Assembly: GCA_002698995.1 (NCBI GenBank)
Contig: PAAX01000001.1
Location: 1,422-65,421, forward strand
From: Ignavibacteriota bacterium
GTDB lineage: Bacteria > Bacteroidota > Ignavibacteria > Ignavibacteriales > Melioribacteraceae
Reading direction: 5' to 3'
DNA: 64,000 bases
Each line of letters opens with the position of its first letter. Within the stretch, counting starts at the first letter, position 1. This document shows positions 2 through 11,143 of this stretch, in pieces. A model generated the notes under the pieces. That model saw only the letters and a list, made by a program, of their open reading frames with translations. It ran no database searches and was not told the DNA's origin. The position numbers were made by a program, and so were the translations under genes.

Positions 2-169
2 ACAATTACTACTTTCAGAGGGAATGTCTCAAAAATAAATAAAAAGCTCAGAGAAGTATTGAATAATGAAATTGTATTTAATGAATACAGAGTCGTTTCA
101 GAGGGTAAAAGAGGGGCTAAATTTTATGGGATAAAAGCAAATCCAACTAAAATCAAGATTATAAAATAA
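2..169 (+). CDS. 3' end of an ORF truncated by the window edge, product unknown
   Basis: Frame 2 is open from the first base to TAA at 167-169 (...FNEYRVVSEGKRGAKFYGIKANPTKIKIIK*). No start is visible and no motif is recognised. Confidence 0.3.
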   Translation, partial: TITTFRGNVSKINKKLREVLNNEIVFNEYRVVSEGKRGAKFYGIKANPTKIKIIK

Positions 170-189
170 ATTGCCGCAACATTGCCAAA
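167..189 (+). promoter_or_regulatory. 23-nt conserved motif TAAATTGCCGCAACATTGCCAAA upstream of hsdR (copy 1 of 2)
   Basis: 21/23 identical to 8700-8722. Both copies begin with the stop codon of the preceding ORF. Both lie exactly 23 nt upstream of a second shared block, TTAATTTT(AC/GT)ATTA (212-225 and 8745-8758). The motif contains the direct half-sites ATTGCC N5 ATTGCC. Confidence 0.35.
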
Positions 190-230: not shown

Positions 231-2495
231 ATGAAAAATTCATCAGAACAAGATGCACGTATTCGAATTGATGATCAGCTTAAAAAAGCTGGTTGGGATA
301 TAACTAATATTAGAGCGGATGTTCCTCTTAGATTAGATTCACACATTAATGAGCCTACTGTTGAGTATAATGTCAATAGTAAACTTGGTAGAGTAGATTA
401 TGTACTTTATGCTGATAATGGTAGACCATTAGCAGTAATCGAAGCAAAAAGGTCTGCACTTCAACCTTATAGTGCAAAACAGCAAGCATTACCTTATGCT
501 AAAAATATTGGGGCGCCTTTCATATTTTTAACAAATGGTGAGTTGATATATTTTTGGGATTATCAGAATGATGATGCAAGAACTGTTAATTCATTTTATT
601 CCCAGAGAGACCTTCAAAGACTCCTTCATTTGAGGGAAAGTAAATTACCTCTTGCTACTGTTGAGATACCTAATACATATATAAGAAACGGTGAATTAAG
701 AACTGTGCGTGAATACCAGCAAGATGCAATGAAGGCAATGGATCATGCATTTGAATTAGGTAAGAAAAGATTTTTAATAGAACTGCCCACAGGTACAGGG
801 AAAACTGATTTAATTAGTTTGTACCTCAAAAGACTAATAGAAGCTAATAGAGCTGAAAAAATTCTATTTCTTGTGGATAGAGAACAATTAGCAAAGCAAG
901 CATTGGAAGCATTAAATGATATAATGAGTAATCAATATGGAAGCTATTGGTTAAAACCTGGAACTATTAGGGAAGAAAAACAAATAACGGTCTGCTTGCT
1001 GCAAACAATGATATCGAGATATGATGAATTCAGTAGCGGTTATTTTGATGTTGTTATAGCTGATGAATGTCATCGTTCAATTTATGGTTCTTGGCAAACT
1101 GCTTTAACACATTTCGATGCTTTTCATATTGGGCTTACCGCAACTCCCGCAATGTATATTGAGAGAAATACATTTCAATTTTATCACTGTAAGAATGAAT
1201 CACCAGATTTTACTTTGCCTATTAAAACGGCTTTTAAAAAAGAATTTCTAGTTCCATATAAATTTGCTGAAAGAATTACTGTTTTAATGTCCGAAGGTGC
1301 TGATAAAGAAGACGAGCATTATGATCCTGCTCAGTTTGAGAAAAAATGGACAAATGAGAAGTCCAATAGATTAATGATGGAGGAGTTTGACAGATTAGCT
1401 CATGAAAATTACAAAGATTTGGCGTCTGGATTAGATGAAGGCCCTGGTAAAACCATTGTATTTGCAATAACTAAGAATCACGCTGCAAGGTTAGCTCAAT
1501 ATCTTAATGAATTGCACCCTGATACAAAGGGTAAATATGCTGAGGTAATTACCAGTGATATTTCAAATGCGGATGAGTTAATTAGACAATTTAAACGAGA
1601 GTCTTATCCAAAAGTTGCAGTGAGTGTAGGTATGCTGGATACTGGATTTGATTGTCGAGAAGTAATAAATCTTGTAATGTGCAGAAGAGTGCGTTCACCA
1701 ATTCTTTATCAACAGATGAGAGGCAGAGGAACAAGAACTTGTCCGAGGATTGATAAGAAAAAATTCATGATCTATGACTTTTTCGAGAATCATAAATATT
1801 TTAATGATAGTGATACCGATATTTTTTCAGGAGTAGGTGGAGGCTCTTATAAAGTATCCAAACCTCAGAAGCCTAAGACGCCAAGAGAACTCATTGAACT
1901 AGGTCTAGAAGATGAATGGCTTTATAGTGTTAATTATGTTGAAGTTGGTCCACAAGGAGAACGAATAGATAAAAAACAATACATTACTAATTGGGAGAAA
2001 ACAATCAGTGATTCTGAAGATGATCCAATTATTAGCAAAATAAAAATGCAGGCTAAGGCGGATGATTCCGAAAAAGATAAGTATGCTCTCTCTAATAATG
2101 AAGAAAATCTATTAACCTCTAGACTTAATAATCCAGACTATTATTTTAATGAGAACAATTTAAGACAAGCATATCGTGAACCAAGTGGAAATATAATTGA
2201 TTTTATCAAATATGCATTAGGTTTATCGAAACAAAAGTCTAAGAACGAAATTATTACTGAAAATTTTAATGCTTGGTTAGTAACAAAATCATTAACGCCT
2301 GAGCAAGCACAGTATTTAGCAATTTTGAAAAACAGAGGAATAGTAAATGGTAAGGTTGAAATAGATGATCTATTCAAACCTCCACTTTCAATACTAAATG
2401 CTGCTGGATTAGGAATTGAACTATTTGGTGAAGATGGCTTGAAAACGGTAATTAATGATATGAATGCTATTTTATTTAATGTCAACGCAGGATAA
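231..2495 (+). CDS. hsdR: Type I restriction enzyme R subunit (HsdR)
   Basis: N-terminal PD-(D/E)xK core (RVDYVLY...LAVIEAKR). SF2 helicase motif I ELPTGTGKT, motif II IADECHRS and motif VI QQMRGRGTR. C-terminal EcoEI-R-C-like tail. A 3-nt gap separates it from hsdM. Confidence 0.9.
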   Translation: MKNSSEQDARIRIDDQLKKAGWDITNIRADVPLRLDSHINEPTVEYNVNSKLGRVDYVLYADNGRPLAVIEAKRSALQPYSAKQQALPYAKNIGAPFIFLTNGELIYFWDYQNDDARTVNSFYSQRDLQRLLHLRESKLPLATVEIPNTYIRNGELRTVREYQQDAMKAMDHAFELGKKRFLIELPTGTGKTDLISLYLKRLIEANRAEKILFLVDREQLAKQALEALNDIMSNQYGSYWLKPGTIREEKQITVCLLQTMISRYDEFSSGYFDVVIADECHRSIYGSWQTALTHFDAFHIGLTATPAMYIERNTFQFYHCKNESPDFTLPIKTAFKKEFLVPYKFAERITVLMSEGADKEDEHYDPAQFEKKWTNEKSNRLMMEEFDRLAHENYKDLASGLDEGPGKTIVFAITKNHAARLAQYLNELHPDTKGKYAEVITSDISNADELIRQFKRESYPKVAVSVGMLDTGFDCREVINLVMCRRVRSPILYQQMRGRGTRTCPRIDKKKFMIYDFFENHKYFNDSDTDIFSGVGGGSYKVSKPQKPKTPRELIELGLEDEWLYSVNYVEVGPQGERIDKKQYITNWEKTISDSEDDPIISKIKMQAKADDSEKDKYALSNNEENLLTSRLNNPDYYFNENNLRQAYREPSGNIIDFIKYALGLSKQKSKNEIITENFNAWLVTKSLTPEQAQYLAILKNRGIVNGKVEIDDLFKPPLSILNAAGLGIELFGEDGLKTVINDMNAILFNVNAG

Positions 2496-2498
2496 TCA

Positions 2499-4238
2499 AT
2501 GAACCAAGATTTAAGAAGAAAATTAGACAGAATTACAAATATTCTATTTGCAGGTGGAGTAAATAATCCCATCACATATATTGAACAAATATCATATTTC
2601 ATTTACCTTAAACTTTTAGATGAGAGAGAAAATGAAATAGCCTTGAAGGGAAGGTTAGGTGGCAAAAATATTACTTCACTTTACCCTGGACAAGCTGAAA
2701 AATATAAATGGTCTAGTTGGAGACATTTTTCTGGTGAAAAGCTATTAAAAGTTGTTCGTGATGATGTCTTTCCATACATGGCAAATGTAAATAGTGATAA
2801 TACTCATATAGCAATTTACTTTAGAGATGCTGTACTTCAAGTTCATGATCCTAATATTCTTAAGCAAGTAATTGATGAAATAGATACAATTAATTTTTCT
2901 AGACTTGGCTCGGATGTTAAGGGAGATATTTATGAATATATGTTGACTTATCTTAATACAATGGAAGGTTCATTGTTGGGGCAATTCAGAACACCAAGAC
3001 AGATAAGAAAAATGATGGTTGAAATGGTTGATCCAGATATTGGTGATACAATTTATGATCCAGCTTGTGGAACTGGTGGGTTTCTTATAGATGCCTTGGA
3101 ACATATTATGGCAAAGTATTCAGAATCAAAAGAAGAAGTTCCAATTTATGGTGAAGAATGGTTAATAAACAAATACCTCGATAGATTATCAGATGATGAG
3201 CAGCTTCAATTTGAGGATGAGGAGTTTTCTTTTGACAATAATCTGAAGTTAAGAACAAAGTTATTAAATGAATTAAAAGAAGAGAACAAAAACCTACAAA
3301 CTTACCTAAAAGGAAATGGCGATCTTATCCCAAATTGGGAAATTCTTGAGCAATCGATTTATGGAGTTGATGTAAGCAGACAAATAATGAGAATTGCTAC
3401 GATGAATATGGTTCTTCATGGAATAATGAAAGCAAATATTAAGAGAGGTAATACACTAAGTGAAATGGGGGGTTTGACTGATGATGATCTCTATAGAAAA
3501 TACAAAGTGATATTATCTAATCCTCCTTTTGCTGGAGTATTACCAAAAGAATCTATAAGAGAAAACTTACCTACCAATACAAAAAAGAGTGAATTGTTAT
3601 TCCTTGCTGTAATGATGGATCAATTAGCTGAAGGCGGGACTTGTGCGGTTATTGTTCCCGAGGGTCTATTATTTGGTTCTACAAATGCTCATTTGGAGCT
3701 TAGAAAGAAACTTGTTGAACAGTTTAATCTTTTGGCTGTAGTTAGCTTGCCTGCAGGTGTTTTTAAGCCTTACGCAGGTGTTAAGACTTCAATTCTGGTA
3801 TTTAAAAGACCTTACAAAGATTCTTTATTTTCCGATAAGGTAGCTACAGAAAAAGTCTGGTTTTATGAGATTAAAAATGATGGATATGATCCCGATAAAA
3901 TAACTGGTGGAGGAAGACCAGAGACAGCGGAAGCAAACGATATACCTAGATTTATGAGAGAGTGGAAAAATTTCAAGAATAGTAATTTCAAAGAATTTCC
4001 TGGAATTGAGGGGGAAACAAGACTACCACATAATTCTAGGGAACCAAAATGTTGGTGGACTAATATTGGTGAAATATTAGATAAAAATTATAATATATCC
4101 GCCTCAAATTATAAGCCATCTATTGAAACATTAAATAGTGAAATTGAACCATCAGAAATAATCAACAACATACTTATTATTGAAAAAAATATTGTTAACA
4201 AATTAGAATCTTTAAGTAACAATTTGCGAAATGACTAA
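2499..4238 (+). CDS. hsdM: Type I R-M N6-adenine DNA methyltransferase subunit (HsdM)
   Basis: Motif I DPACGTGGF and motif IV LSNPPFAG. The N-terminal region is HsdM_N-like. Overlaps hsdS by 8 nt. Confidence 0.9.
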   Translation: MNQDLRRKLDRITNILFAGGVNNPITYIEQISYFIYLKLLDERENEIALKGRLGGKNITSLYPGQAEKYKWSSWRHFSGEKLLKVVRDDVFPYMANVNSDNTHIAIYFRDAVLQVHDPNILKQVIDEIDTINFSRLGSDVKGDIYEYMLTYLNTMEGSLLGQFRTPRQIRKMMVEMVDPDIGDTIYDPACGTGGFLIDALEHIMAKYSESKEEVPIYGEEWLINKYLDRLSDDEQLQFEDEEFSFDNNLKLRTKLLNELKEENKNLQTYLKGNGDLIPNWEILEQSIYGVDVSRQIMRIATMNMVLHGIMKANIKRGNTLSEMGGLTDDDLYRKYKVILSNPPFAGVLPKESIRENLPTNTKKSELLFLAVMMDQLAEGGTCAVIVPEGLLFGSTNAHLELRKKLVEQFNLLAVVSLPAGVFKPYAGVKTSILVFKRPYKDSLFSDKVATEKVWFYEIKNDGYDPDKITGGGRPETAEANDIPRFMREWKNFKNSNFKEFPGIEGETRLPHNSREPKCWWTNIGEILDKNYNISASNYKPSIETLNSEIEPSEIINNILIIEKNIVNKLESLSNNLRND

Positions 4239-5328
4239 AGTTAATATTAAATTTGAACTTGCTATAAGTGATGAGACCGGTGGAAATAAGAAGGTCAAAA
4301 AAAATGAATACTTAGTTGACGGAAGATATCCAATTATTGATCAAGGGAAAGAAATTATATCTGGTTATACAAATGATGAAAACAATCTTTTCAAATTTAA
4401 TCAACCCTTAATTTTGTTTGGAGATCATACACGAATATTCAAATACATTGATTTTCCTTTTTGTCTTGGAGCTGATGGTGTAAAAGTATTACTTCCACAT
4501 AAAAGTTTTGATGCAAAGTATTTGTATTATTTTTTTAATACTCTCAACATTGATAGCAAAGGTTATAGTCGACATTTTAAGTTCATAAAGAAATTTGAAA
4601 TACCCTTAATTGCCAAATCAGAACAAAAAAGAATAGTTGAAATATTAGATCAAGCTGATGAAATAAGACAATTACGTAAACAAGCTGATGATAAATCAAA
4701 TGAAATAATCTCTTCACTTTTTTATAAAATGTTTGGTGATTTAGAAAAAGATACACTACTGCATGAAGTAATGGAACTTAAATATGGGAAGGGATTACCT
4801 AAATCAAAAAGAAGAAAGGGCAATATTCCTGTTTATGGTTCAAATGGAGTTGTGGACTACCATGATAAACATTTTATGAAAAACGATACAATAATTGTAG
4901 GAAGAAAAGGCAGTGCAGGGGAAGTTCAACTTGTCCGAGGAGCAAGTTGGCCTATTGATACAACATTTTATACTGAAATAATAAAAAATGATGTAGAATT
5001 AGAATATTTATTCTTCGCATTGAAGCAACTTGATTTGAGAAAGTTTGCAATTATTACAGGGGTTCCTGGAATAAATAGGGACACTATACTTAATCAAAAA
5101 ATTGCTATACCTGATCCAAAGTTACAAAGTAGATTTAGTCGGATTTATAATCAAATATCAGATTTAAATGAAAAACAACAATGCTCAAGTAACAGCATTG
5201 ATTCTCTTTATACTAATCTTTTATCTAAAGCTTTTGATGGTAGTCTTACAGAAAGATGGCGTGAAGGTAGAATGAAAGAATTGTTACAAGAGATGGAAGA
5301 GCAAAAGAAATATTTAGGAATTAATTAA
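4231..5328 (+). CDS. hsdS: Type I R-M specificity subunit (HsdS)
   Basis: Two target-recognition halves are separated by the conserved helical spacer EQKRIVEILDQADEIRQLRKQADDKSNEI. A second spacer lies at the C-terminus (LQSRFSRIYNQISDL...LLSKAF). Position follows hsdM. Confidence 0.85.
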   Translation: MTKVNIKFELAISDETGGNKKVKKNEYLVDGRYPIIDQGKEIISGYTNDENNLFKFNQPLILFGDHTRIFKYIDFPFCLGADGVKVLLPHKSFDAKYLYYFFNTLNIDSKGYSRHFKFIKKFEIPLIAKSEQKRIVEILDQADEIRQLRKQADDKSNEIISSLFYKMFGDLEKDTLLHEVMELKYGKGLPKSKRRKGNIPVYGSNGVVDYHDKHFMKNDTIIVGRKGSAGEVQLVRGASWPIDTTFYTEIIKNDVELEYLFFALKQLDLRKFAIITGVPGINRDTILNQKIAIPDPKLQSRFSRIYNQISDLNEKQQCSSNSIDSLYTNLLSKAFDGSLTERWREGRMKELLQEMEEQKKYLGIN

Positions 5329-5338
5329 GGCAATCAAA

Positions 5339-7777
5339 ATGAAATTGCATGAAGCAATTCAGCAAGTACTTTTAGAAGAAAATAGAGAGCTAAACTCTTC
5401 TCAAATTGCTCACAAAGTTAATCAGAAGAAACTCTATACAAGAGGTGATGGCCAACCTGTTCCTTCAAGTCAGATAAGTGCTAGAGTGCGGAAATATCCC
5501 GCACTATTTAATTATAATGGTTCTATTATTGGATTAAAACAATGGCTCGTCAAAAAAGAACATAGTGTAAATAAAATGAAATTGCATGAAGCTATTCAAC
5601 ATATATTATTAGACAAAAATAGAGAATTAAGTGCATTCCAAATTTCTAAGATAGTTAATGAAAAAGGACTTTATCAGAGAAAGGATGGGCAACAAGTTCC
5701 ATCAAAACAGGTTCTTGCAAGAGTAAGGAATTATCCACTTTTATTTTATAGCGATAATAATAGGATCGGTCTTAATGCATGGAGATTAAAATTTGCTAAC
5801 AAAGAAAGTTTACTATATAAAGAAATACTTTATATACTAGAACAAAATAGTGAAGCAATGGATCCAAAAGTCATTGCGGATACAATAGTTAAGAGAGAAA
5901 TATATTTTAAGGATGACAAAACCAGAGTAAATGCTGAAGATGTATTATTTGAAATAAGGAAAAATGAAAATACATTTCAAATTATTAACGGCTTGGTTCA
6001 ACTTTCAAACTGGGACTTTGATGAGGATTATATCAAGGAGGCGGTTTATGATATTATGGTTAAAGAGGAAATAAGTACTAAGGATGAATTAGATTTTAGT
6101 AATTCACTGAAGAACTTTAGAGTCGGCAACTTCAAACCATATAATCATTCTCAATCATTAAAATTAAAGCCAATAACTTTGCTCTTTGGACCTAATAGTT
6201 CTGGGAAATCAAGTTTAATACATTCTATTTTATATTTACAAAATGCATTTGATCAAAAAGATTTAGATCCTCATTATATGAAAATTAGCGGTGACTCAGT
6301 TGATTTGGGCGGTTTTAGGCAACTTATACACAGGAATGATATACAAAGACGATTAGAATATGAAATTGAAATTGACAAATCTCAGCTTAACACAGAATTG
6401 CAAAAAACTTTAATGGAAATTAATTCAATTAAGCTAAAGATTGAAATAGGCCAACCACTTAAAGAAAAATTCAAAAGACAAATTATCAAAGCTCATGAAG
6501 ATGGACAATTCTTTTATGAAAACTCACCAACAGGGGAATTTGAATCTGTTGGTAAACCTCGAGTTCAAAAGTATGATATAGTGCTCGATGAAGAAACAAT
6601 GTTAAGCTTTGGTTATAGAGGAAATGATTTGTTTAAAATTGATCAATTCAATTATTCTAATAAAATAATATCGAAAATTATTCAAGCAATAATTTTAAGC
6701 AATACTACGACTAGTGAAATAGATGATGATGATTATAATAAAGTGCAGGATTCTATAGATAATATATTGAGCGAGTTTTACGTTTTAACGACTGATATAA
6801 TACCCAGCAGAATTAGAACTATCTCTAAAACGACAATGGATAAGATCATTGCCATTAATAAAGAAAATAGAGAATTGGAATTTGCAAATACTATTAGAAT
6901 GTTTTTACCAGTGGCTTTAAATGAAATTTTAGAGGGTCTTTATGATGTTGCGAAATTGTCTTTATCCACTTTGGTTTATCTAGGACCTATTCGATCTTAT
7001 CCACCTCGTCATCTATCATTTGAAGCAATTAATAATTCTAATTACCAATCTGGTGGTGCTCTTGCTTGGGATAAATTAAGAGACAATGAAGAAGTCAGAA
7101 AAAAGATTAATGCTTGGTTAAGAAATACTGGCAAATTAAAATCAAGGTACCAAATTGAAGTAAGAAAATATGTTGATCCAAAAAGCAATGAGTTTAATTC
7201 TGTTTTAGAAGATATAGAATCAGAACAGAATTTTGAATTAGAAAAATTAGGAAATTGGAATGGTCTTCCAATTGACAAGATTATAGATAGTATGAAGAGT
7301 GACGCAGTTGAGGGAATTAAGGAACTTGTACTTGTAGATTCTGATGGAACCGTAGTAAGTCATAGAGATGTTGGCTTTGGAATAAGTCAGGTCATTCCAG
7401 TTCTAGTATACACTTTAGCCAATAAAAATAAAATAGTTATGATAGAACAACCGGAAATTCACTTGCATCCAGCGCTTCAGGCAGAGCTTGGTGATGTAAT
7501 GATTGAAAGTGCTTTAGGAGAAAACAAAAATACACTTATTCTTGAAAATCATAGTGAGCACATGATTCTACGAATACTAAGGAGAATTAGGGAAACATCA
7601 AGCGGAGAACTACCAGAGGGTAAAATTCCAATTAAACCAGAAGACGTATCAGTTATCTACATTCAAAACACTAGGGAAGGTGCAGTATTAAACAATATAC
7701 CTATTACTGAAGACGGTGATTTTTCGAAGCGATGGCCAGATGGGTTTTTCCCCGAAAGAGCAGAGGAACTAAACTAA
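5339..7777 (+). CDS. ABC-type (AAA_15/AAA_21-like) ATPase with three N-terminal HARE-HTH-like winged-helix modules and a DUF3696-like C-terminus
   Basis: wHTH modules span aa 1-69, 80-148 and ~156-225, each ending GL..W or QLSNW. Walker A LLFGPNSSGKSS. Walker B/D-loop IVMIEQPEIHLHPALQ. C-terminal HSEHMILRILRRIRE...WPDGFFPE. It starts 10 nt after the hsdS stop. Confidence 0.8.
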   Translation: MKLHEAIQQVLLEENRELNSSQIAHKVNQKKLYTRGDGQPVPSSQISARVRKYPALFNYNGSIIGLKQWLVKKEHSVNKMKLHEAIQHILLDKNRELSAFQISKIVNEKGLYQRKDGQQVPSKQVLARVRNYPLLFYSDNNRIGLNAWRLKFANKESLLYKEILYILEQNSEAMDPKVIADTIVKREIYFKDDKTRVNAEDVLFEIRKNENTFQIINGLVQLSNWDFDEDYIKEAVYDIMVKEEISTKDELDFSNSLKNFRVGNFKPYNHSQSLKLKPITLLFGPNSSGKSSLIHSILYLQNAFDQKDLDPHYMKISGDSVDLGGFRQLIHRNDIQRRLEYEIEIDKSQLNTELQKTLMEINSIKLKIEIGQPLKEKFKRQIIKAHEDGQFFYENSPTGEFESVGKPRVQKYDIVLDEETMLSFGYRGNDLFKIDQFNYSNKIISKIIQAIILSNTTTSEIDDDDYNKVQDSIDNILSEFYVLTTDIIPSRIRTISKTTMDKIIAINKENRELEFANTIRMFLPVALNEILEGLYDVAKLSLSTLVYLGPIRSYPPRHLSFEAINNSNYQSGGALAWDKLRDNEEVRKKINAWLRNTGKLKSRYQIEVRKYVDPKSNEFNSVLEDIESEQNFELEKLGNWNGLPIDKIIDSMKSDAVEGIKELVLVDSDGTVVSHRDVGFGISQVIPVLVYTLANKNKIVMIEQPEIHLHPALQAELGDVMIESALGENKNTLILENHSEHMILRILRRIRETSSGELPEGKIPIKPEDVSVIYIQNTREGAVLNNIPITEDGDFSKRWPDGFFPERAEELN

Positions 7778-7778
7778 A

Positions 7779-8702
7779 ATGATAAAAGAATATGCTCTTG
7801 ATCCGCAAGTAATGGCTAGTTGGGATAACTTTAGATTCTTTAGTTCGCAATTTGGCTGTCAATACGGACGGATGATATCAAAATTTCCGAGTGGATGGAA
7901 AAGAATAGTATTTGAATTATGTCAAAATAATCATGGTATAAGTGAAATTCAGTTAAAGAAAATTGAAGTAAATCTTTATCAACGAGAATTTGACCGTAAA
8001 TTTGTAAAAAATTCTAGGGATTATGTTAATAGTTTAGGATGGATTGAGAATGCATTACGTTCTAACCAGAATAAACCTTTTCATGCAATTATAAGCTCTG
8101 AAGTGAGAGAGAGTGTACAATTGGTAGACGATATAGACGATTCTAATGAAAAATGGAAAGTGGATATAGGTTTACCCGTACCAAGAACTGCTAATCATTT
8201 TGTAAAAGTTTTCACCCCATTTTTTCTCTTAGCAAATGATATAATTTTTGTTGAACCACATTTTGATCCACATACATCTAAATGGTATCGAGCTTTTCGA
8301 ATCTACTTCAGGAAGTTATTTGAAAATGGAAAACGATATCGAAAAATAGAATTACACACTTCGGCTAAAATGACTCCAAAAATATTTGCTGATGAATTTA
8401 TTATCAAGTTTGAGCAGTTTTTCACCGAAAATTACGGAATTCATGTTTATTTATGGGAACGAATCGATAATAACGAAAATTTTCATCCTCGATATTTGCT
8501 GACAGAAGTTGGAGGTCTGAGAATTGATTATGGTTTTGATGACATAAGTGAAGATGAAACTACTGATATTTCTTTACTGAGTGATATAGTCTATGAAAAA
8601 AGAAAAAGTAACATTGAAGAATCCTCTACTGTATTTAATTTAGTTGCAAAGATTCTGTTTTCGAAAAAAAATACTAGGTTGACATACTCTATACTTCAGT
8701 AA
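7779..8702 (+). CDS. Hypothetical protein, translationally coupled partner of the ABC ATPase
   Basis: The ATG lies 1 nt after the ATPase TAA stop (7775-7777). The ORF is 307 aa with no motif I can assign. Coding potential is judged from length, coupling and composition. Confidence 0.75.
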   Translation: MIKEYALDPQVMASWDNFRFFSSQFGCQYGRMISKFPSGWKRIVFELCQNNHGISEIQLKKIEVNLYQREFDRKFVKNSRDYVNSLGWIENALRSNQNKPFHAIISSEVRESVQLVDDIDDSNEKWKVDIGLPVPRTANHFVKVFTPFFLLANDIIFVEPHFDPHTSKWYRAFRIYFRKLFENGKRYRKIELHTSAKMTPKIFADEFIIKFEQFFTENYGIHVYLWERIDNNENFHPRYLLTEVGGLRIDYGFDDISEDETTDISLLSDIVYEKRKSNIEESSTVFNLVAKILFSKKNTRLTYSILQ

Positions 8703-8722
8703 ATTGCCACAACATTGCTAAA
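8700..8722 (+). promoter_or_regulatory. 23-nt conserved motif TAAATTGCCACAACATTGCTAAA (copy 2 of 2)
   Basis: See 167-189. It sits in the 75-nt gap upstream of the HARE-HTH/GIY-YIG-like gene. Confidence 0.35.
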
Positions 8723-8777
8723 ACTTTATATCCTCTATTTGTATTTAATTTTGTATTAGAAATTAAAAAGAGGATAT

Positions 8778-9614
8778 ATGACACTCCACGAAGAAATAAA
8801 GAACATACTTTTAGAAAATGGTAAGCCACTAACCACTTCTCAAATTGCTGACTTTGTAAATGATCGAAAAATATACTTAAAAAGAGATAATTCAAAAGTA
8901 TCCTCATTTCAGATTCATGGACGAACTAAAAATTATTCCAATATATTCTTAAGGAATAAAACTATAGTTGGACTTAGAAATCGTGACGAAGCTTTGATGA
9001 ATTCAGATGAGTTTAATTCCGAAGAACCAAACTATCAAGCAAATAATCCAATTATTAATTTCATGTTTAATCAGGGCCATACCGAATTTAATGATCTTAT
9101 AAATGTAGATAAAATAAAGTTTCTGATTGATAATGGGTTTATAAATTTGGGCAAAATAAAACATTTATTGATAGAAGGGCTTCCGCAAATTTCAGAACTT
9201 CAATCAAGTGGGCTTTATGCTATTACAGCTTATGAAAATTATAAACCGAGCTATTATAACCATCAAGAAGCAATTGAAAATGGGAATGTAGTATCGCCAT
9301 GGGAAGCTTCGAGATTAATAAATAAATGGGTAGATGGGGCAGAGATCCTCTATTATGGACTTGCTGGAGCGAAATCAAGTCGACCATTAAAAGTAAGGTT
9401 GAATGATTTACTTAAACATGCATTTGGTGATATAACTGAAAGAGGTCCACATAAAGGGGGAGAAATAATATGGCAATTAAAGAATTGGCAAGATTTTGAA
9501 TTATGGGCACTCCCAACTGGAGCACCACCAGAACCCAGAGATAAAGAATATTTGCTGCTCAAGAAATTTTACGAGACTACAGGGAAACTGCCATTTGCTA
9601 ATAGACAATTTTAA
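8778..9614 (+). CDS. HARE-HTH-like winged helix fused to a GIY-YIG-like nuclease domain
   Basis: N-terminus MTLHEEIKNILLENGKPLTTSQIADFV...IVGLRN parallels the modules in the 5339 ORF. The C-terminus has SGLYAIT ... ILYYGLAG ... RLNDLL ... PHKGG ... DKEYLLL ... LPFANRQ, matching the GIY / YIG / R / H / E / N order of GIY-YIG nucleases with a long insert between GIY and YIG. Confidence 0.6.
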   Translation: MTLHEEIKNILLENGKPLTTSQIADFVNDRKIYLKRDNSKVSSFQIHGRTKNYSNIFLRNKTIVGLRNRDEALMNSDEFNSEEPNYQANNPIINFMFNQGHTEFNDLINVDKIKFLIDNGFINLGKIKHLLIEGLPQISELQSSGLYAITAYENYKPSYYNHQEAIENGNVVSPWEASRLINKWVDGAEILYYGLAGAKSSRPLKVRLNDLLKHAFGDITERGPHKGGEIIWQLKNWQDFELWALPTGAPPEPRDKEYLLLKKFYETTGKLPFANRQF

Positions 9615-9629
9615 TAAAGAGGTAATAAA

Positions 9630-10994
9630 ATGAGAAGTAATTACACTGAAGTAATCGAATGTCCTAAGTGTGGAGAACAAATTAAATTGACTGAGGCCTT
9701 GATAGGTCATATTGAATCAGATCTTAAAAAAACCTTATCAGAAGAAAATAATCAAAAAATTGAACAAGCAAAGAAAGAAGCCGCTAAAAAGGCATTAGAA
9801 GAACGTGAAAATGAATTTGTAGATTTGAGAAATCAACTTGCAGAAAAGCAAACAAAAATCGATAAGCTTAATTCCAAAGAACTCGAATTGAATAAGAAAG
9901 CAAGAGAGTTAGAAGAAAAAGAAAATTCCATTACCAATGAATTGGAAAAACGCCTTAACAGTGAGAGGACTAAATTAATAGCACAAGGACGTGAACAAGC
10001 TACAAAGAATGTAACGCTTGAAGTTCAAGACCTAAAAGAGCAACTTAATGAGGCAACTAAAAGGGTCGAAAATTTGACGAAAAAAGAACTTGATCTTCGT
10101 AAGGAAAAGCGAGAGTTAGAAAATGCTAGGAAGGAATTGGAATTGGAAAAACAGCGAGAAATAGATTCAATGCGAGAAGAGATTTATAAACAAGCAAAGA
10201 ATGAGTCTGATGTAGATTACAAATTAAAAATTAGGGAGCGAGATGAGCAGTTAAAGCAGATGAATAAAAAGATTGAAGAACTTCAAAGAAAAGCTGAACA
10301 AGGATCTCAGCAATTGCAGGGTGAAGCACAAGAATTAGAACTAGAAGATTTTTTGAAATATAATTTCCCTTTAGATGATATAGAACCCATTGCCAAAGGT
10401 CAAAAAGGTGCTGATATAATACAAAAAGTTAAAAATGAATTCGGGGCTGAATGTGGTATAATATTATGGGAATCAAAAAGAACAAAGGATTTTGGAAATA
10501 AATGGATAGCTAAATTAAAAGAAGACCAGAGAGAAACCAAAGCAAATATTGCAGTAATTATTACGGAAGTACTTCCAGAAAATATAAATAATTTTGGAGT
10601 GATTGATGGAGTATGGGTAGGGAGTTTTCAATCAACTCTTGGTATTGCCACAGCGCTGCGTGAAAATCTTATCCAAATATTTAACCTACGTCAATCAGAA
10701 GTTGGAAAGAATCAAAAGATGGACGCTCTTTATGGATATTTAACGAGTCATGAATTTGCACAAAGAATTGAATCAATTATTGAAGCATTTGATGCTTTGG
10801 AGGGACAAATTAAAACCGAAAGAAAAGCATTTGAGAAACAATGGAATGAAAGGGCTAAACTGCTCTCTCAAGTAATGAAAAATACTGTTGGTCTTCATGG
10901 CGATCTAAAAGGGATAATAGGCAAAACCTTACCTGAAATAGAGGGATTATCCTTAGAGGACAAGTCATCTTTCTCTGAGCTAAATTTAATTTAA
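9630..10994 (+). CDS. DUF2130-family protein (zinc-ribbon N-terminus, long coiled coil, restriction-endonuclease-like C-terminal domain)
   Basis: CPKCGEQ at the N-terminus, then about 230 aa of E/K-rich coiled coil. C-terminus reads GADIIQKV...GIILWESKRTKDFGNKWIAKLKEDQ, a D...ExK-type core typical of DUF2130. An SD-like AGAGG lies upstream. Confidence 0.7.
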   Translation: MRSNYTEVIECPKCGEQIKLTEALIGHIESDLKKTLSEENNQKIEQAKKEAAKKALEERENEFVDLRNQLAEKQTKIDKLNSKELELNKKARELEEKENSITNELEKRLNSERTKLIAQGREQATKNVTLEVQDLKEQLNEATKRVENLTKKELDLRKEKRELENARKELELEKQREIDSMREEIYKQAKNESDVDYKLKIRERDEQLKQMNKKIEELQRKAEQGSQQLQGEAQELELEDFLKYNFPLDDIEPIAKGQKGADIIQKVKNEFGAECGIILWESKRTKDFGNKWIAKLKEDQRETKANIAVIITEVLPENINNFGVIDGVWVGSFQSTLGIATALRENLIQIFNLRQSEVGKNQKMDALYGYLTSHEFAQRIESIIEAFDALEGQIKTERKAFEKQWNERAKLLSQVMKNTVGLHGDLKGIIGKTLPEIEGLSLEDKSSFSELNLI

Positions 10995-11120: not shown

Positions 11121-11143
11121 GGCAGCAAACTTAATTTGCTGCC
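11121..11143 (+). other. Perfect 9-bp stem hairpin GGCAGCAAA-cttaa-TTTGCTGCC
   Basis: Read directly from the sequence. Only a weak T-tract follows, so a terminator role is uncertain. Confidence 0.3.

What the first reader, a model, noticed from the sequence alone, without database searches (positions are those of the whole stretch)
8778..10994. HARE-HTH/GIY-YIG-like nuclease paired with a DUF2130 coiled-coil nuclease-like protein
Seen in the sequence: the 278-aa ORF starts with the same wHTH module as the ATPase. It ends with motifs in GIY-YIG order: SGLYAIT, ILYYGLAG, an Arg in RLNDLL, PHKGG, the Glu in DKEYLLL and LPFANRQ. The gap between the GIY and YIG motifs is unusually long, about 45 aa. 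It is followed 15 nt later by a 454-aa protein with a CxxC N-terminus, about 230 aa of coiled coil and a D...ESK core (DUF2130 pattern). Established knowledge: HARE-HTH domains have been proposed as readers of modified DNA and occur fused to restriction nucleases. DUF2130 has no assigned function. Inference: the pair could be a modification-dependent (type IV-like) restriction module or an abortive-infection effector pair.
Basis: partly seen in the sequence, partly recalled or inferred. Interest (0 to 1): 0.6.

Follow-up and report, generated by a model that had tools for sequence, protein, structure and literature searches.

The report
Reader-tagged GIY-YIG nuclease beside DUF2130
The 278-aa gene encodes a DNA-reader domain tethered to a divergent, uncatalogued GIY-YIG-type nuclease that sits as its own cassette in an anti-phage gene island, and the DUF2130 nuclease after it is a separate restriction-linked cassette, not a fixed partner.

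Summary
Both ORFs, every quoted motif, the 45-residue GIY-to-YIG spacing, the 15-nt gap and the CxxC / D...ESK pattern of the second protein all check out.

The GIY-YIG inference holds:
- The C-terminal domain models at pLDDT 95.
- Its only credible structural matches are GIY-YIG enzymes (R.Eco29kI, R.Hpy188I, phage intron endonucleases).
- The catalytic set Y147, Y192, R207, E257 and N275 is conserved.
- A 162-aa family member passes Pfam's GIY_YIG_2 threshold.

The domain belongs to a family of about 1,900 clusters that has no Pfam model. The N-terminus is a HARE-HTH, 43% identical to the modules of the neighbouring ATPase. ORF2 is a clear DUF2130 with an invariant PD-(D/E)xK core.

The pair idea does not hold. 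DUF2130 lies next to a relative of the 278-aa protein in only one other locus, and three genes away in a second. It is absent from 54 metagenome loci, 10 genome loci and 29 DUF2130 loci. Close relatives are instead followed by a 150-aa + ARPP-1 pair. The closest DUF2130 relatives sit at the ends of type I R-M or BREX clusters, an R-M link this scan has noted before on other DNA.

A conserved 16-nt box marks the start of these cassettes.

Verdict: a new variant of a known kind, of moderate interest.

The parts
8701..8718 (+). Conserved box AAATTGCC-A-CAAC-ATTGC (direct repeat ATTGCC with 11-bp period), 60-77 nt upstream of the ORF1 start codon. The second copy is at 168-185, before hsdR.
   Evidence: There are only two exact copies in the window (0.04 expected) and in the whole 4.23-Mb genome. 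The same box lies upstream of ORF1-like, DuOB and DUF2130 cassettes in other organisms.
8732..8773 (+). Leader/promoter region. The inverted repeat CCTCT...AGAGG brackets a Bacteroidota-type -7-like element, TAATTTTG (8746-8753). AGAGG lies 4 nt before the ATG.
   Evidence: Sequence. The alignment of 7 ORF1-like leaders keeps the arms. The 78-nt leader averages 78% nt identity, against 61% for the nuclease-domain CDS. Promoter function is inferred.
8778..8987 (+). ORF1 residues 1-70: HARE-HTH winged-helix DNA-reader domain.
   Evidence: Pfam HARE-HTH E 0.011, below cut-off. PF05066 is present on more than 30 homologues. 43% identity to ATPase module 1, which passes Pfam at 33.3 bits. The AF2 helix/strand pattern has pLDDT 95-97.
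8988..9098 (+). ORF1 residues 71-107: variable linker, probably disordered.
   Evidence: pLDDT is below 50 for residues 82-102. There is no conservation in alignment A1.
9099..9614 (+). ORF1 residues 108-278: divergent GIY-YIG nuclease domain. Proposed roles: Y147 (GIY), Y192 (YIG), R207, H214/H225, E257, N275. A family-specific PHKGGExxWQ motif is also present.
   Evidence: AF2 pLDDT 95.4, pTM 0.91, order beta-beta-alpha-beta-alpha. Foldseek top hits are R.Eco29kI, R.Hpy188I and the GrxS16 N-domain, plus viral GIY-YIG and intron endonucleases. Family member P0332 passes Pfam GIY_YIG_2.
9228..9344 (+). Insert of about 39 residues (res 151-189) between the GIY and YIG strands. It is modelled as two short helices and carries conserved N170, P174 and K183-W184-V185.
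   Evidence: Secondary structure (H55-61 and H70-76 of the domain model). Conservation.
9630..10994 (+). ORF2: DUF2130 protein with CxxC (9660-9671), a coiled coil (about 9687-10349) and a PD-(D/E)xK core (D262, E281, K283). The Pfam DUF2130 match spans 10221-10958.
   Evidence: Pfam 9.8e-65. Invariant C11, C14, D262, E281 and K283. DUF2130 is listed in the PD-(D/E)XK superfamily census (PMC3424549).
11121..11143 (+). First terminator-like hairpin after ORF2, which probably ends the ORF1-ORF2 transcription unit.
   Evidence: No terminator-like site lies on the + strand between 8778 and 10994.

Best explanation
ORF1 is a single-chain, two-domain endonuclease. An N-terminal HARE-HTH DNA-reader is joined by a flexible linker to a divergent GIY-YIG catalytic domain. 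That domain has an insert of about 40 residues in the GIY-YIG hairpin and an intact Tyr/Tyr/Arg/Glu/Asn active site.

ORF1 is a self-contained cassette with its own conserved leader: a 16-nt box, a -7-like element and an inverted repeat. In related organisms the cassette is docked behind different defence systems (type I R-M + Menshen-like ATPase pair, BREX, MADS).

The most likely mechanism is as follows. The HARE-HTH selects the DNA to be cut, plausibly phage DNA carrying modified bases, as in type IV restriction. The GIY-YIG domain then nicks or cuts nearby. This would complement the type I R-M system, which attacks unmodified DNA.

DUF2130 is co-transcribed with ORF1 here but is an independent accessory nuclease cassette (coiled coil plus PD-(D/E)xK). 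Its close relatives habitually sit at the 3' end of R-M or BREX clusters. It is not an obligate partner of ORF1.

Shown here: the fold, residue conservation, domain architecture, neighbourhoods and the cis-element. Inferred: nuclease activity, a defence role, modification dependence and co-transcription.
For: GIY-YIG assignment:
- Model pLDDT 95.4.
- The seven best PDB matches are all GIY-YIG folds, at probability 0.41-0.80, then a drop to 0.04 or less.
- BFVD top hits have probability 0.99, and the named hits at probability 0.2 or above are GIY-YIG or intron endonucleases.
- hhalign aligns GIY, YIG and Arg with GIY_YIG_2 proteins (P 1.4e-4).
- P0332, a 162-aa member (E 1e-32 to the family profile), scores 25.3 bits on GIY_YIG_2 (cut-off 22.4) and E 0.004 on PF01541.
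- The catalytic set is invariant or nearly so.

Reader module swapping: the same HARE-HTH subtype is fused to GIY_YIG_2, UDG and HNH domains. Other family members carry GntR, MerR or TrmB HTHs.

Self-sufficiency: the gene stands alone among metabolic genes in Trinickia, Gemmatimonadota and Chloroflexota and next to RhuM only.

Defence context of close relatives: type I R-M + ATPase, BREX, MADS, Mrr.

Independence of DUF2130:
- Not found near ORF1 relatives or near other DUF2130 genes.
- Its closest relatives follow type I R-M or BREX clusters without any ORF1-like gene.
- In L065 the DUF2130 gene has its own box.
- L065 and L023 are 98.9% identical from about 200 nt inside DUF2130 onward, yet differ completely upstream.

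wH-GIY-YIG fusions are proven type IV enzymes (PMC11037411).
Against: - No activity data exist for this family or for any bacterial HARE-HTH.
- Foldseek E-values are weak (0.006-0.25) and TM-scores only 0.3-0.5.
- ORF1 itself matches no Pfam, NCBIfam or PADLOC nuclease model.
- Most members of the wider family are about 165-aa proteins with no DNA-binding domain.
- In the close clade the gene is usually followed, with 1-nt spacing, by a 150-aa + ARPP-1 pair. It often lies near ARG and DUF488 genes, so it may belong to that system rather than act alone.
- ORF1 and DUF2130 are separated by only 15 nt here and 10 nt in L023, so a functional link in this sub-lineage is not excluded.
Confidence: 0.55

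Rival explanations
1. ORF1-like proteins are the nuclease arm, or the DNA-sensing arm, of the ARG-centred ADP-ribose-processing conflict systems (ARG, rhodanese-phosphatase/DUF488, DuOB, ARPP, REase-ARP). The window would then hold a reduced remnant in which only the nuclease survives next to DUF2130.
For: In the clade at least 50% identical to ORF1, ARPP-1, ARG, DUF488/DuOB or REase-ARP genes lie within a few genes in L011, L014, L015, L023, L025, L031, L074 and L077. The 150-aa gene follows ORF1-like with a 1-nt gap or an overlap. PMC9503650 describes these systems as having variable nuclease effectors.
Against: The window has no ARG, DUF488, DuOB, ARPP-1, REase-ARP or 150-aa homologue. More distant ORF1 relatives occur without any of them. 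The paper does not list a GIY-YIG component. The box in front of DuOB cassettes shows that these are separately started units.
Confidence: 0.2
2. ORF1 and DUF2130 form a dedicated two-nuclease system. The HARE-HTH/GIY-YIG protein would recognise and nick DNA, and the coiled-coil PD-(D/E)xK protein would complete the break or act as an abortive-infection effector.
For: The two genes are on the same strand with a 15-nt gap and no terminator between them. The same order with a 10-nt gap occurs in L023, and both genes are in one cluster in L025. These relatives are only 52-57% identical, so the arrangement is not a trivially recent copy.
Against: DUF2130 is absent from 0 of 54 metagenome loci (35 of them with at least 1 kb downstream), 0 of 10 genome loci and 0 of 29 DUF2130 loci in the phylum. 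The closest DUF2130 relatives lack ORF1. The N-terminal 70 residues of DUF2130 are no more alike in ORF1-linked copies. A recombination breakpoint lies inside DUF2130.
Confidence: 0.12
3. ORF1-like genes are selfish or domesticated homing-type GIY-YIG endonucleases. Their target is the conserved 16-nt box at cassette boundaries, and cutting there drives cassette exchange within defence islands.
For: GIY-YIG is a classic homing-endonuclease fold. The box occurs only at cassette starts, including cassettes without ORF1 (hsdR in the window, DuOB, and DUF2130 in L065). The islands are mosaic.
Against: The box is intact immediately upstream of every ORF1-like gene, so there is no self-immunity by site disruption. 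The one mapped breakpoint (L065/L023) is inside DUF2130, not at a box. There are no relatives in 50,697 phage records. The box sits at the distance from a -7-like element that is expected of an operator.
Confidence: 0.07

Closest known systems
wH-GIY-YIG type IV restriction endonucleases Ahi29725I / Apa233I (PMC11037411)
   Same: These are single-chain enzymes with an N-terminal winged-helix reader and a C-terminal GIY-YIG nuclease, and they need no cognate methyltransferase.
   Different: Their reader is a DpnI-type wH that senses 6mA. Here the nuclease domain is a separate, unmodelled GIY-YIG clade with a 45-residue GIY-YIG spacing. No sequence match to those enzymes was tested.
GIY-YIG restriction enzymes R.Eco29kI (3MX4/3NIC) and R.Hpy188I (3OR3/3OQG)
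   Same: They are the best structural matches. Both are GIY-YIG cores elaborated with extra elements, and from memory both also have a GIY-YIG spacing longer than the canonical one (not measured here).
   Different: Sequence identity is only 12-17% and TM-score 0.3-0.4. They are type II enzymes with cognate methyltransferases and no separate reader domain.
HARE-HTH + GIY_YIG_2 (PF20815) fusion proteins (e.g. P0107, P0108)
   Same: The N-terminal HARE-HTH is nearly the same (58-59% identity over about 70 residues) and is fused to a GIY-YIG-class nuclease.
   Different: Their nuclease domain passes PF20815 at 1e-34. ORF1's does not, and aligns with it only over the GIY...YIG...Arg segment (P 1.4e-4).
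DUF2130 (PF09903, COG4487), an accessory gene of R-M operons, and coiled-coil RmuC-type nucleases such as Shield ShdA
   Same: ORF2 is a full member of DUF2130. It combines a coiled coil with a PD-(D/E)xK core and sits at the 3' end of a restriction cluster.
   Different: DUF2130 itself has no tested function. The relation to RmuC/ShdA was not detected by Pfam or PADLOC here and remains only a lead from earlier notes.
E. coli K-12 immigration control region (hsdRMS with mrr and mcrBC)
   Same: Both are islands that combine type I R-M with nucleases lacking a methyltransferase.
   Different: The components are unrelated, and the analogy rests on my own knowledge of that locus.

Membership tests
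GIY-YIG nuclease superfamily | Core fold: a three-stranded sheet with flanking helices, in the order beta1-beta2-alpha1-beta3-alpha2 | tested here: met
   In the AF2 domain model (pLDDT 95.4) the order is E38-43, E83-89, H97-108, E134-139, H145-161. The only credible Foldseek matches are GIY-YIG proteins, although E-values are weak (0.006-0.25).
GIY-YIG nuclease superfamily | Tyr of the GIY strand and Tyr of the YIG strand | tested here: met
   Y147 is at least 90% conserved and Y192 is invariant, and both lie in predicted strands 1 and 2.
GIY-YIG nuclease superfamily | Conserved Arg on helix 1, a metal-binding Glu on helix 2 and a C-terminal Asn | tested here: met
   R207 and N275 are invariant and E257 is at least 90% conserved. 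The spatial clustering of these residues was not checked, because no coordinates were accessible.
GIY-YIG nuclease superfamily | Canonical spacing of 10-11 residues between GIY and YIG | tested here: not met
   The spacing is 45 residues, with a two-helix insert. From memory, the restriction-enzyme members also depart from the canonical spacing; this was not measured here.
GIY-YIG nuclease superfamily | A match to a curated family model | tested here: inconclusive
   ORF1 itself gives no hit. Family member P0332 scores 25.3 bits on PF20815 (cut-off 22.4) and E 0.004 on PF01541. 3 of 40 members hit PF20815.
GIY-YIG nuclease superfamily | Metal-dependent phosphodiester cleavage | not testable with these tools
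   This needs purified protein.
HARE-HTH (PF05066) | A match to the family model and a winged-helix fold | tested here: inconclusive
   ORF1 scores 16.5 bits against a cut-off of 25.9. However, more than 30 homologues carry PF05066. ORF1 is 43% identical to the ATPase module that scores 33.3 bits. The whole-protein model matches wH domains.
DUF2130 (PF09903) / PD-(D/E)xK clan | Family model match and a D...(D/E)xK core | tested here: met
   218.8 bits. D262, E281 and K283 are invariant in 38 sequences. The family is listed as PD-(D/E)XK in PMC3424549.
Type IV (modification-dependent) restriction enzyme | Nuclease plus DNA-reader in one chain, with no cognate methyltransferase required | tested here: met
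   The architecture is shown. Relatives occur solitary, with no methyltransferase nearby.
Type IV (modification-dependent) restriction enzyme | Cleavage depends on a base modification | not testable with these tools
Dedicated ORF1 + DUF2130 two-gene system | Adjacency conserved across lineages | tested here: not met
   Adjacent only in the window and L023, and three genes apart in L025. Absent in 0 of 54, 0 of 10 and 0 of 29 surveyed loci.
ARG-centred ADP-ribose conflict system (PMC9503650) | Presence of ARG together with a phosphatase (DUF488) or ARPP | tested here: not met
   tblastn found no homologue in the window. These genes are present beside ORF1 relatives elsewhere.

The most novel reading that the evidence does not exclude
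The 16-nt box ATTGCC-R-CAAC-ATTGCC, found in this genome only in front of hsdR and ORF1 and in other organisms in front of ORF1-like, DuOB and DUF2130 cassettes, is a dedicated cassette-boundary element of defence islands. It would be either the common operator of a shared island regulator or the site at which the HARE-HTH/GIY-YIG nuclease itself binds or cuts to drive cassette shuffling. On that reading, ORF1 is part of the machinery that builds and controls the island, not just another restriction enzyme.
Probability: 0.08. Interest if true: 0.8.

Novelty: new variant of a known kind. Interest (0 to 1): 0.4.

Why it matters
Reader-nuclease fusions are the standard design of type IV restriction enzymes. 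No HARE-HTH fusion has been tested, although the domain has been predicted for over a decade to read modified DNA.

This gene is a compact, well-modelled candidate at 278 aa. It also exposes a GIY-YIG clade of about 1,900 clusters that current family libraries and defence catalogues miss, so genome annotations currently call these genes 'hypothetical'.

Showing that DUF2130 is not ORF1's partner prevents a false two-gene 'system' from entering catalogues. It also adds to the evidence that DUF2130 is a general accessory of restriction and BREX clusters.

The shared box offers a handle on how such islands are regulated or assembled.

Tried and rejected
- Direct family searches of ORF1 (Pfam, NCBIfam, PHROGs, PADLOC, PDB by sequence and by profile) gave nothing for the C-domain.
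- The whole-protein model gave the same GIY-YIG top hits as the domain model, but diluted by the wHTH, so the domain was refolded alone.
- hhalign against five GIY_YIG_2 domains gave only moderate support (probability 53% local, 17% global).
- tblastn found no window homologues of the 150-aa, ARPP-1, DUF2779, DUF2188, REase-ARP, DuOB, DUF488 or ARG proteins.
- I tested whether the DUF2130 N-terminus co-varies with ORF1 linkage. It does not.
- I tested whether cassette gain or loss between L065 and L023 breaks at the box. The breakpoint is inside DUF2130 instead.
- I tested whether the CARF gene upstream of hsdR travels with the box. It does not occur in the other loci held.
- The phage collection gave no relatives, which argues against a phage homing endonuclease.
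- Literature searches for DUF488, ARPP-1 and the rhodanese-phosphatase paper mostly failed. One search was swamped by unrelated terms and the DOI is not held.
Full report
**Setting.** Window 231-10994 is one same-strand gene array:
- hsdR (231-2495), hsdM (2499-4238) and hsdS (4231-5328).
- An 812-aa protein (5339-7777) with three HARE-HTH modules and an ABC-type ATPase (AAA_15, AAA_21, DUF3696). Its best PADLOC hits are NsnB, PDC-M55A and HEC-03B at about 1e-42.
- A 307-aa protein with no family (7779-8702).
- ORF1 (8778-9614).
- ORF2 (9630-10994).

Downstream genes are ordinary: a membrane protein, an HTH, a PAS histidine kinase and a tricorn-like protease. The island therefore ends at ORF2, and a terminator-like hairpin follows at 11121-11143.

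**Observation.**
- In 51 homologues of ORF1, G145, Y192, G194, R207, H225, G227, G228, W232, Q233, P272, F273 and N275 are invariant. Y147, H214, E229, R254 and E257 are at least 90% conserved.
- In 38 DUF2130 homologues, C11, C14, D262, E281 and K283 are invariant.

**Is the C-domain GIY-YIG?** Direct searches found nothing. Four independent lines then agreed.
1. Structure prediction. AlphaFold2 on the domain alone (residues 108-278, 60-sequence alignment) gave pLDDT 95.4 and pTM 0.91. The order of elements is strand (GLYAIT), a two-helix insert, strand (ILYYGLA), helix carrying R207, strand, helix carrying E257.
2. Fold search. Against the PDB, the seven best matches were R.Eco29kI chains, R.Hpy188I and the GIY-YIG-fold N-domain of a plant glutaredoxin, at probability 0.41-0.80. 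Everything below had probability 0.04 or less. Against viral models, the two best hits had probability 0.99, and the named hits at probability 0.2 or above were 'GIY-YIG domain-containing' or 'intron-associated endonuclease'. E-values (0.006-0.25) and TM-scores (0.3-0.5) are weak, as expected for a small core with a large insert.
3. Profile comparison. hhalign aligned GIY, YIG and the Arg with HARE-HTH/GIY_YIG_2 proteins (P 1.4e-4).
4. Transitive sequence evidence. An HMM of stand-alone domain proteins found 1,898 clusters (at 50% identity) with E of 1e-3 or better. One of them, the 162-aa protein P0332 (E 1e-32), passes Pfam's GIY_YIG_2 gathering score (25.3 against 22.4 bits). It also hits the classical GIY-YIG model at E 0.004.

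I conclude with about 90% confidence that ORF1 carries a GIY-YIG-superfamily domain with an intact catalytic set. It belongs to a clade that has no Pfam model.

**The N-terminal domain.** On its own it falls below the HARE-HTH threshold. It is nevertheless 43% identical to module 1 of the ATPase, which passes, and many homologues carry PF05066. The same HARE-HTH subtype is fused elsewhere to GIY_YIG_2, UDG and HNH domains. Other members of the nuclease family carry GntR, MerR or TrmB HTHs, or no extra domain at all.

**Neighbourhoods of ORF1 relatives.** Close relatives (51-57% identity) lie in defence islands:

| Locus | Gene order around the ORF1-like gene (P) |
|---|---|
| L011 | MADS genes - P - 150-aa - ARPP-1 - DUF2779 |
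| L014 | ATPase + 301-aa (homologues of the window's pair) - P - 157-aa - DUF2779 - DuOB - DUF488 x2 - ARG |
| L015 | BREX - P - 150-aa - ARPP-1 - ARG |
| L023 | BREX - DuOB - DUF488 x2 - P - DUF2130 - DUF2188 - REase-ARP |
| L025 | hsdRMS - HARE-HTH ATPase - 311-aa - P - 150-aa - ARPP-1 - DUF2130 |
| L031-L034 | hsdRMS - ATPase - 322-aa - P (no HARE-HTH) - 150-aa - ARPP-1 |

- More distant relatives sit after an Mrr-like gene, before RhuM, inside helicase/methyltransferase clusters, or alone among metabolic genes.
- The gene is sporadic among relatives of the host: 4 of 41 genomes.
- It is absent from 50,697 phage records.

**Is DUF2130 its partner?** DUF2130 was not found beside ORF1 relatives, or ORF1 relatives beside DUF2130, in any of three surveys:
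- None of 10 genome loci.
- None of 54 metagenome loci, 35 of which have at least 1 kb downstream.
- None of 29 other DUF2130 loci from 401 genomes of the phylum.

DUF2130 is present in 67 of those 401 genomes and is nearly universal in some families (18 of 21 in one), which is unlike ORF1. The closest DUF2130 relatives sit right after BREX (L065) or after hsdMSR + YgjP-like (L066-L068). They are usually followed by a DUF2188 gene, with no ORF1-like gene present.

L065 and L023 come from one metagenome. They are 98.9% identical from about 200 nt inside DUF2130 onward but unrelated upstream. The ORF1-DUF2130 junction is therefore a recombination product. The DUF2130 N-terminus shows no extra similarity among ORF1-linked copies.

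The pairing is thus a local juxtaposition of two cassettes. A sub-lineage functional link is not excluded; I give it about 12%.

**The cis-element.**
- AAATTGCC-R-CAAC-ATTGC occurs twice in the window, at 168-185 before hsdR and at 8701-8718 before ORF1. Chance expectation is 0.04.
- It occurs nowhere else in the 4.23-Mb genome.
- In other organisms the same box sits 60-77 nt upstream of ORF1-like genes, of DuOB-DUF488 cassettes and of the ORF1-less DUF2130 gene of L065.
- It is followed at a fixed distance by a TAnnTTTG element.
- In ORF1-like leaders only, the inverted repeat CCTCTTTC...GAAAGAGG brackets that element.
- The 78-nt leader is more conserved (78% nt identity) than the nuclease-domain coding sequence (61%).

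I read this as a promoter with an upstream operator shared by cassettes. That reading is an inference, and the rival reading as a recombination or target site is kept as the novel case.

**Mechanism proposed.**
- ORF1 is transcribed from its own regulated promoter, with DUF2130 riding on the same transcript. This is inferred from the 15-nt gap and the absence of a terminator.
- The HARE-HTH docks on DNA. The literature only predicts that such domains read modified bases.
- The tethered GIY-YIG domain cuts nearby, as the characterised wH-GIY-YIG type IV enzymes do.
- This would cover hypermodified phage DNA that escapes the adjacent type I system.
- DUF2130 probably acts as a separate DNA nuclease accessory to restriction clusters, and its trigger is unknown.

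**Rivals.**
- ORF1 is an arm of the ARG/ARPP systems (0.2).
- ORF1 and DUF2130 are a true pair (0.12).
- ORF1 is a box-targeting, homing-like nuclease (0.07).

**Limits.** DUF2130 was not folded. No residue-level structural superposition was done. All function is inferred.

Noticed in passing
window 168-185 and 8701-8718; also L011 7924, L014 7924 and 11182, L023 7934 and 9924, L025 9924, L031 6924, L065 7915, L074 1129 and 5924: The 16-nt box ATTGCC-R-CAAC-ATTGCC marks the start of defence cassettes of different content (hsdR, ORF1-like, DuOB-DUF488, DUF2130) in several organisms. In the host genome it occurs only at these two places. It may be a shared operator or a cassette-boundary site.
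   Followed up: partly
window 8732-8773 and the equivalent leaders in L011, L014, L015, L023, L025 and L031: ORF1-like leaders carry the inverted repeat CCTCTTTC...GAAAGAGG around a TAnnTTTG element. The leader is more conserved than the coding sequence (78% against 61% nt identity). It could be a palindromic operator over the promoter, or an RNA hairpin hiding the AGAGG before the start codon.
   Followed up: partly
own contig just before the window (L069 502-1500 = G000:C6:592-1590): A 332-aa protein with an RtcR-type CARF domain (PF06956, 29.5 bits) ends exactly at the box upstream of hsdR. It is a possible ligand-sensing regulator of the island, but it was not found in the other box-bearing loci held.
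   Followed up: partly
window 5339-8702; L014 5203-7912; L025 6754-9923; L031 3701-6921: The ATPase plus roughly 310-aa pair (NsnB/HEC-03B-like) recurs directly upstream of ORF1-like genes in three other contexts. One partner (L031, 322 aa) has a weak PLD-like MIT_C hit (E 0.002). This agrees with the earlier Menshen-like reading.
   Followed up: partly
L011 8845-10214, L015 8950-10319, L025 10845-12231, L031 7557-8928: A conserved 150-aa protein with no Pfam match, followed by ARPP-1 (PF20208), comes directly after ORF1-like genes with a 1-nt gap or an overlap. PMC9503650 reports ARPP in two-gene units with a HIRAN domain. Whether the 150-aa protein is a HIRAN was not established.
   Followed up: no
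L065 8208-12270 versus L023 11040-15100: Two contigs from one metagenome share a 98.9% identical DUF2130(3' part)-DUF2188-REase-ARP block behind entirely different upstream defence genes. The breakpoint lies about 200 nt inside the DUF2130 gene.
   Followed up: yes
L006 9077-10991, L008 640-2085, P0109: The nuclease domain also occurs with other architectures. In L006 and L008 it follows an unknown N-terminal domain of about 300 aa. In P0109, and apparently L006, the order is permuted so that the HARE-HTH follows the nuclease.
   Followed up: no
L046 130-1395: A DUF2779 gene lies next to a DUF2130 gene in another genome of the phylum. DUF2779 also replaces DUF2130 downstream of ORF1-like genes in L011 and L014.
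   Followed up: no
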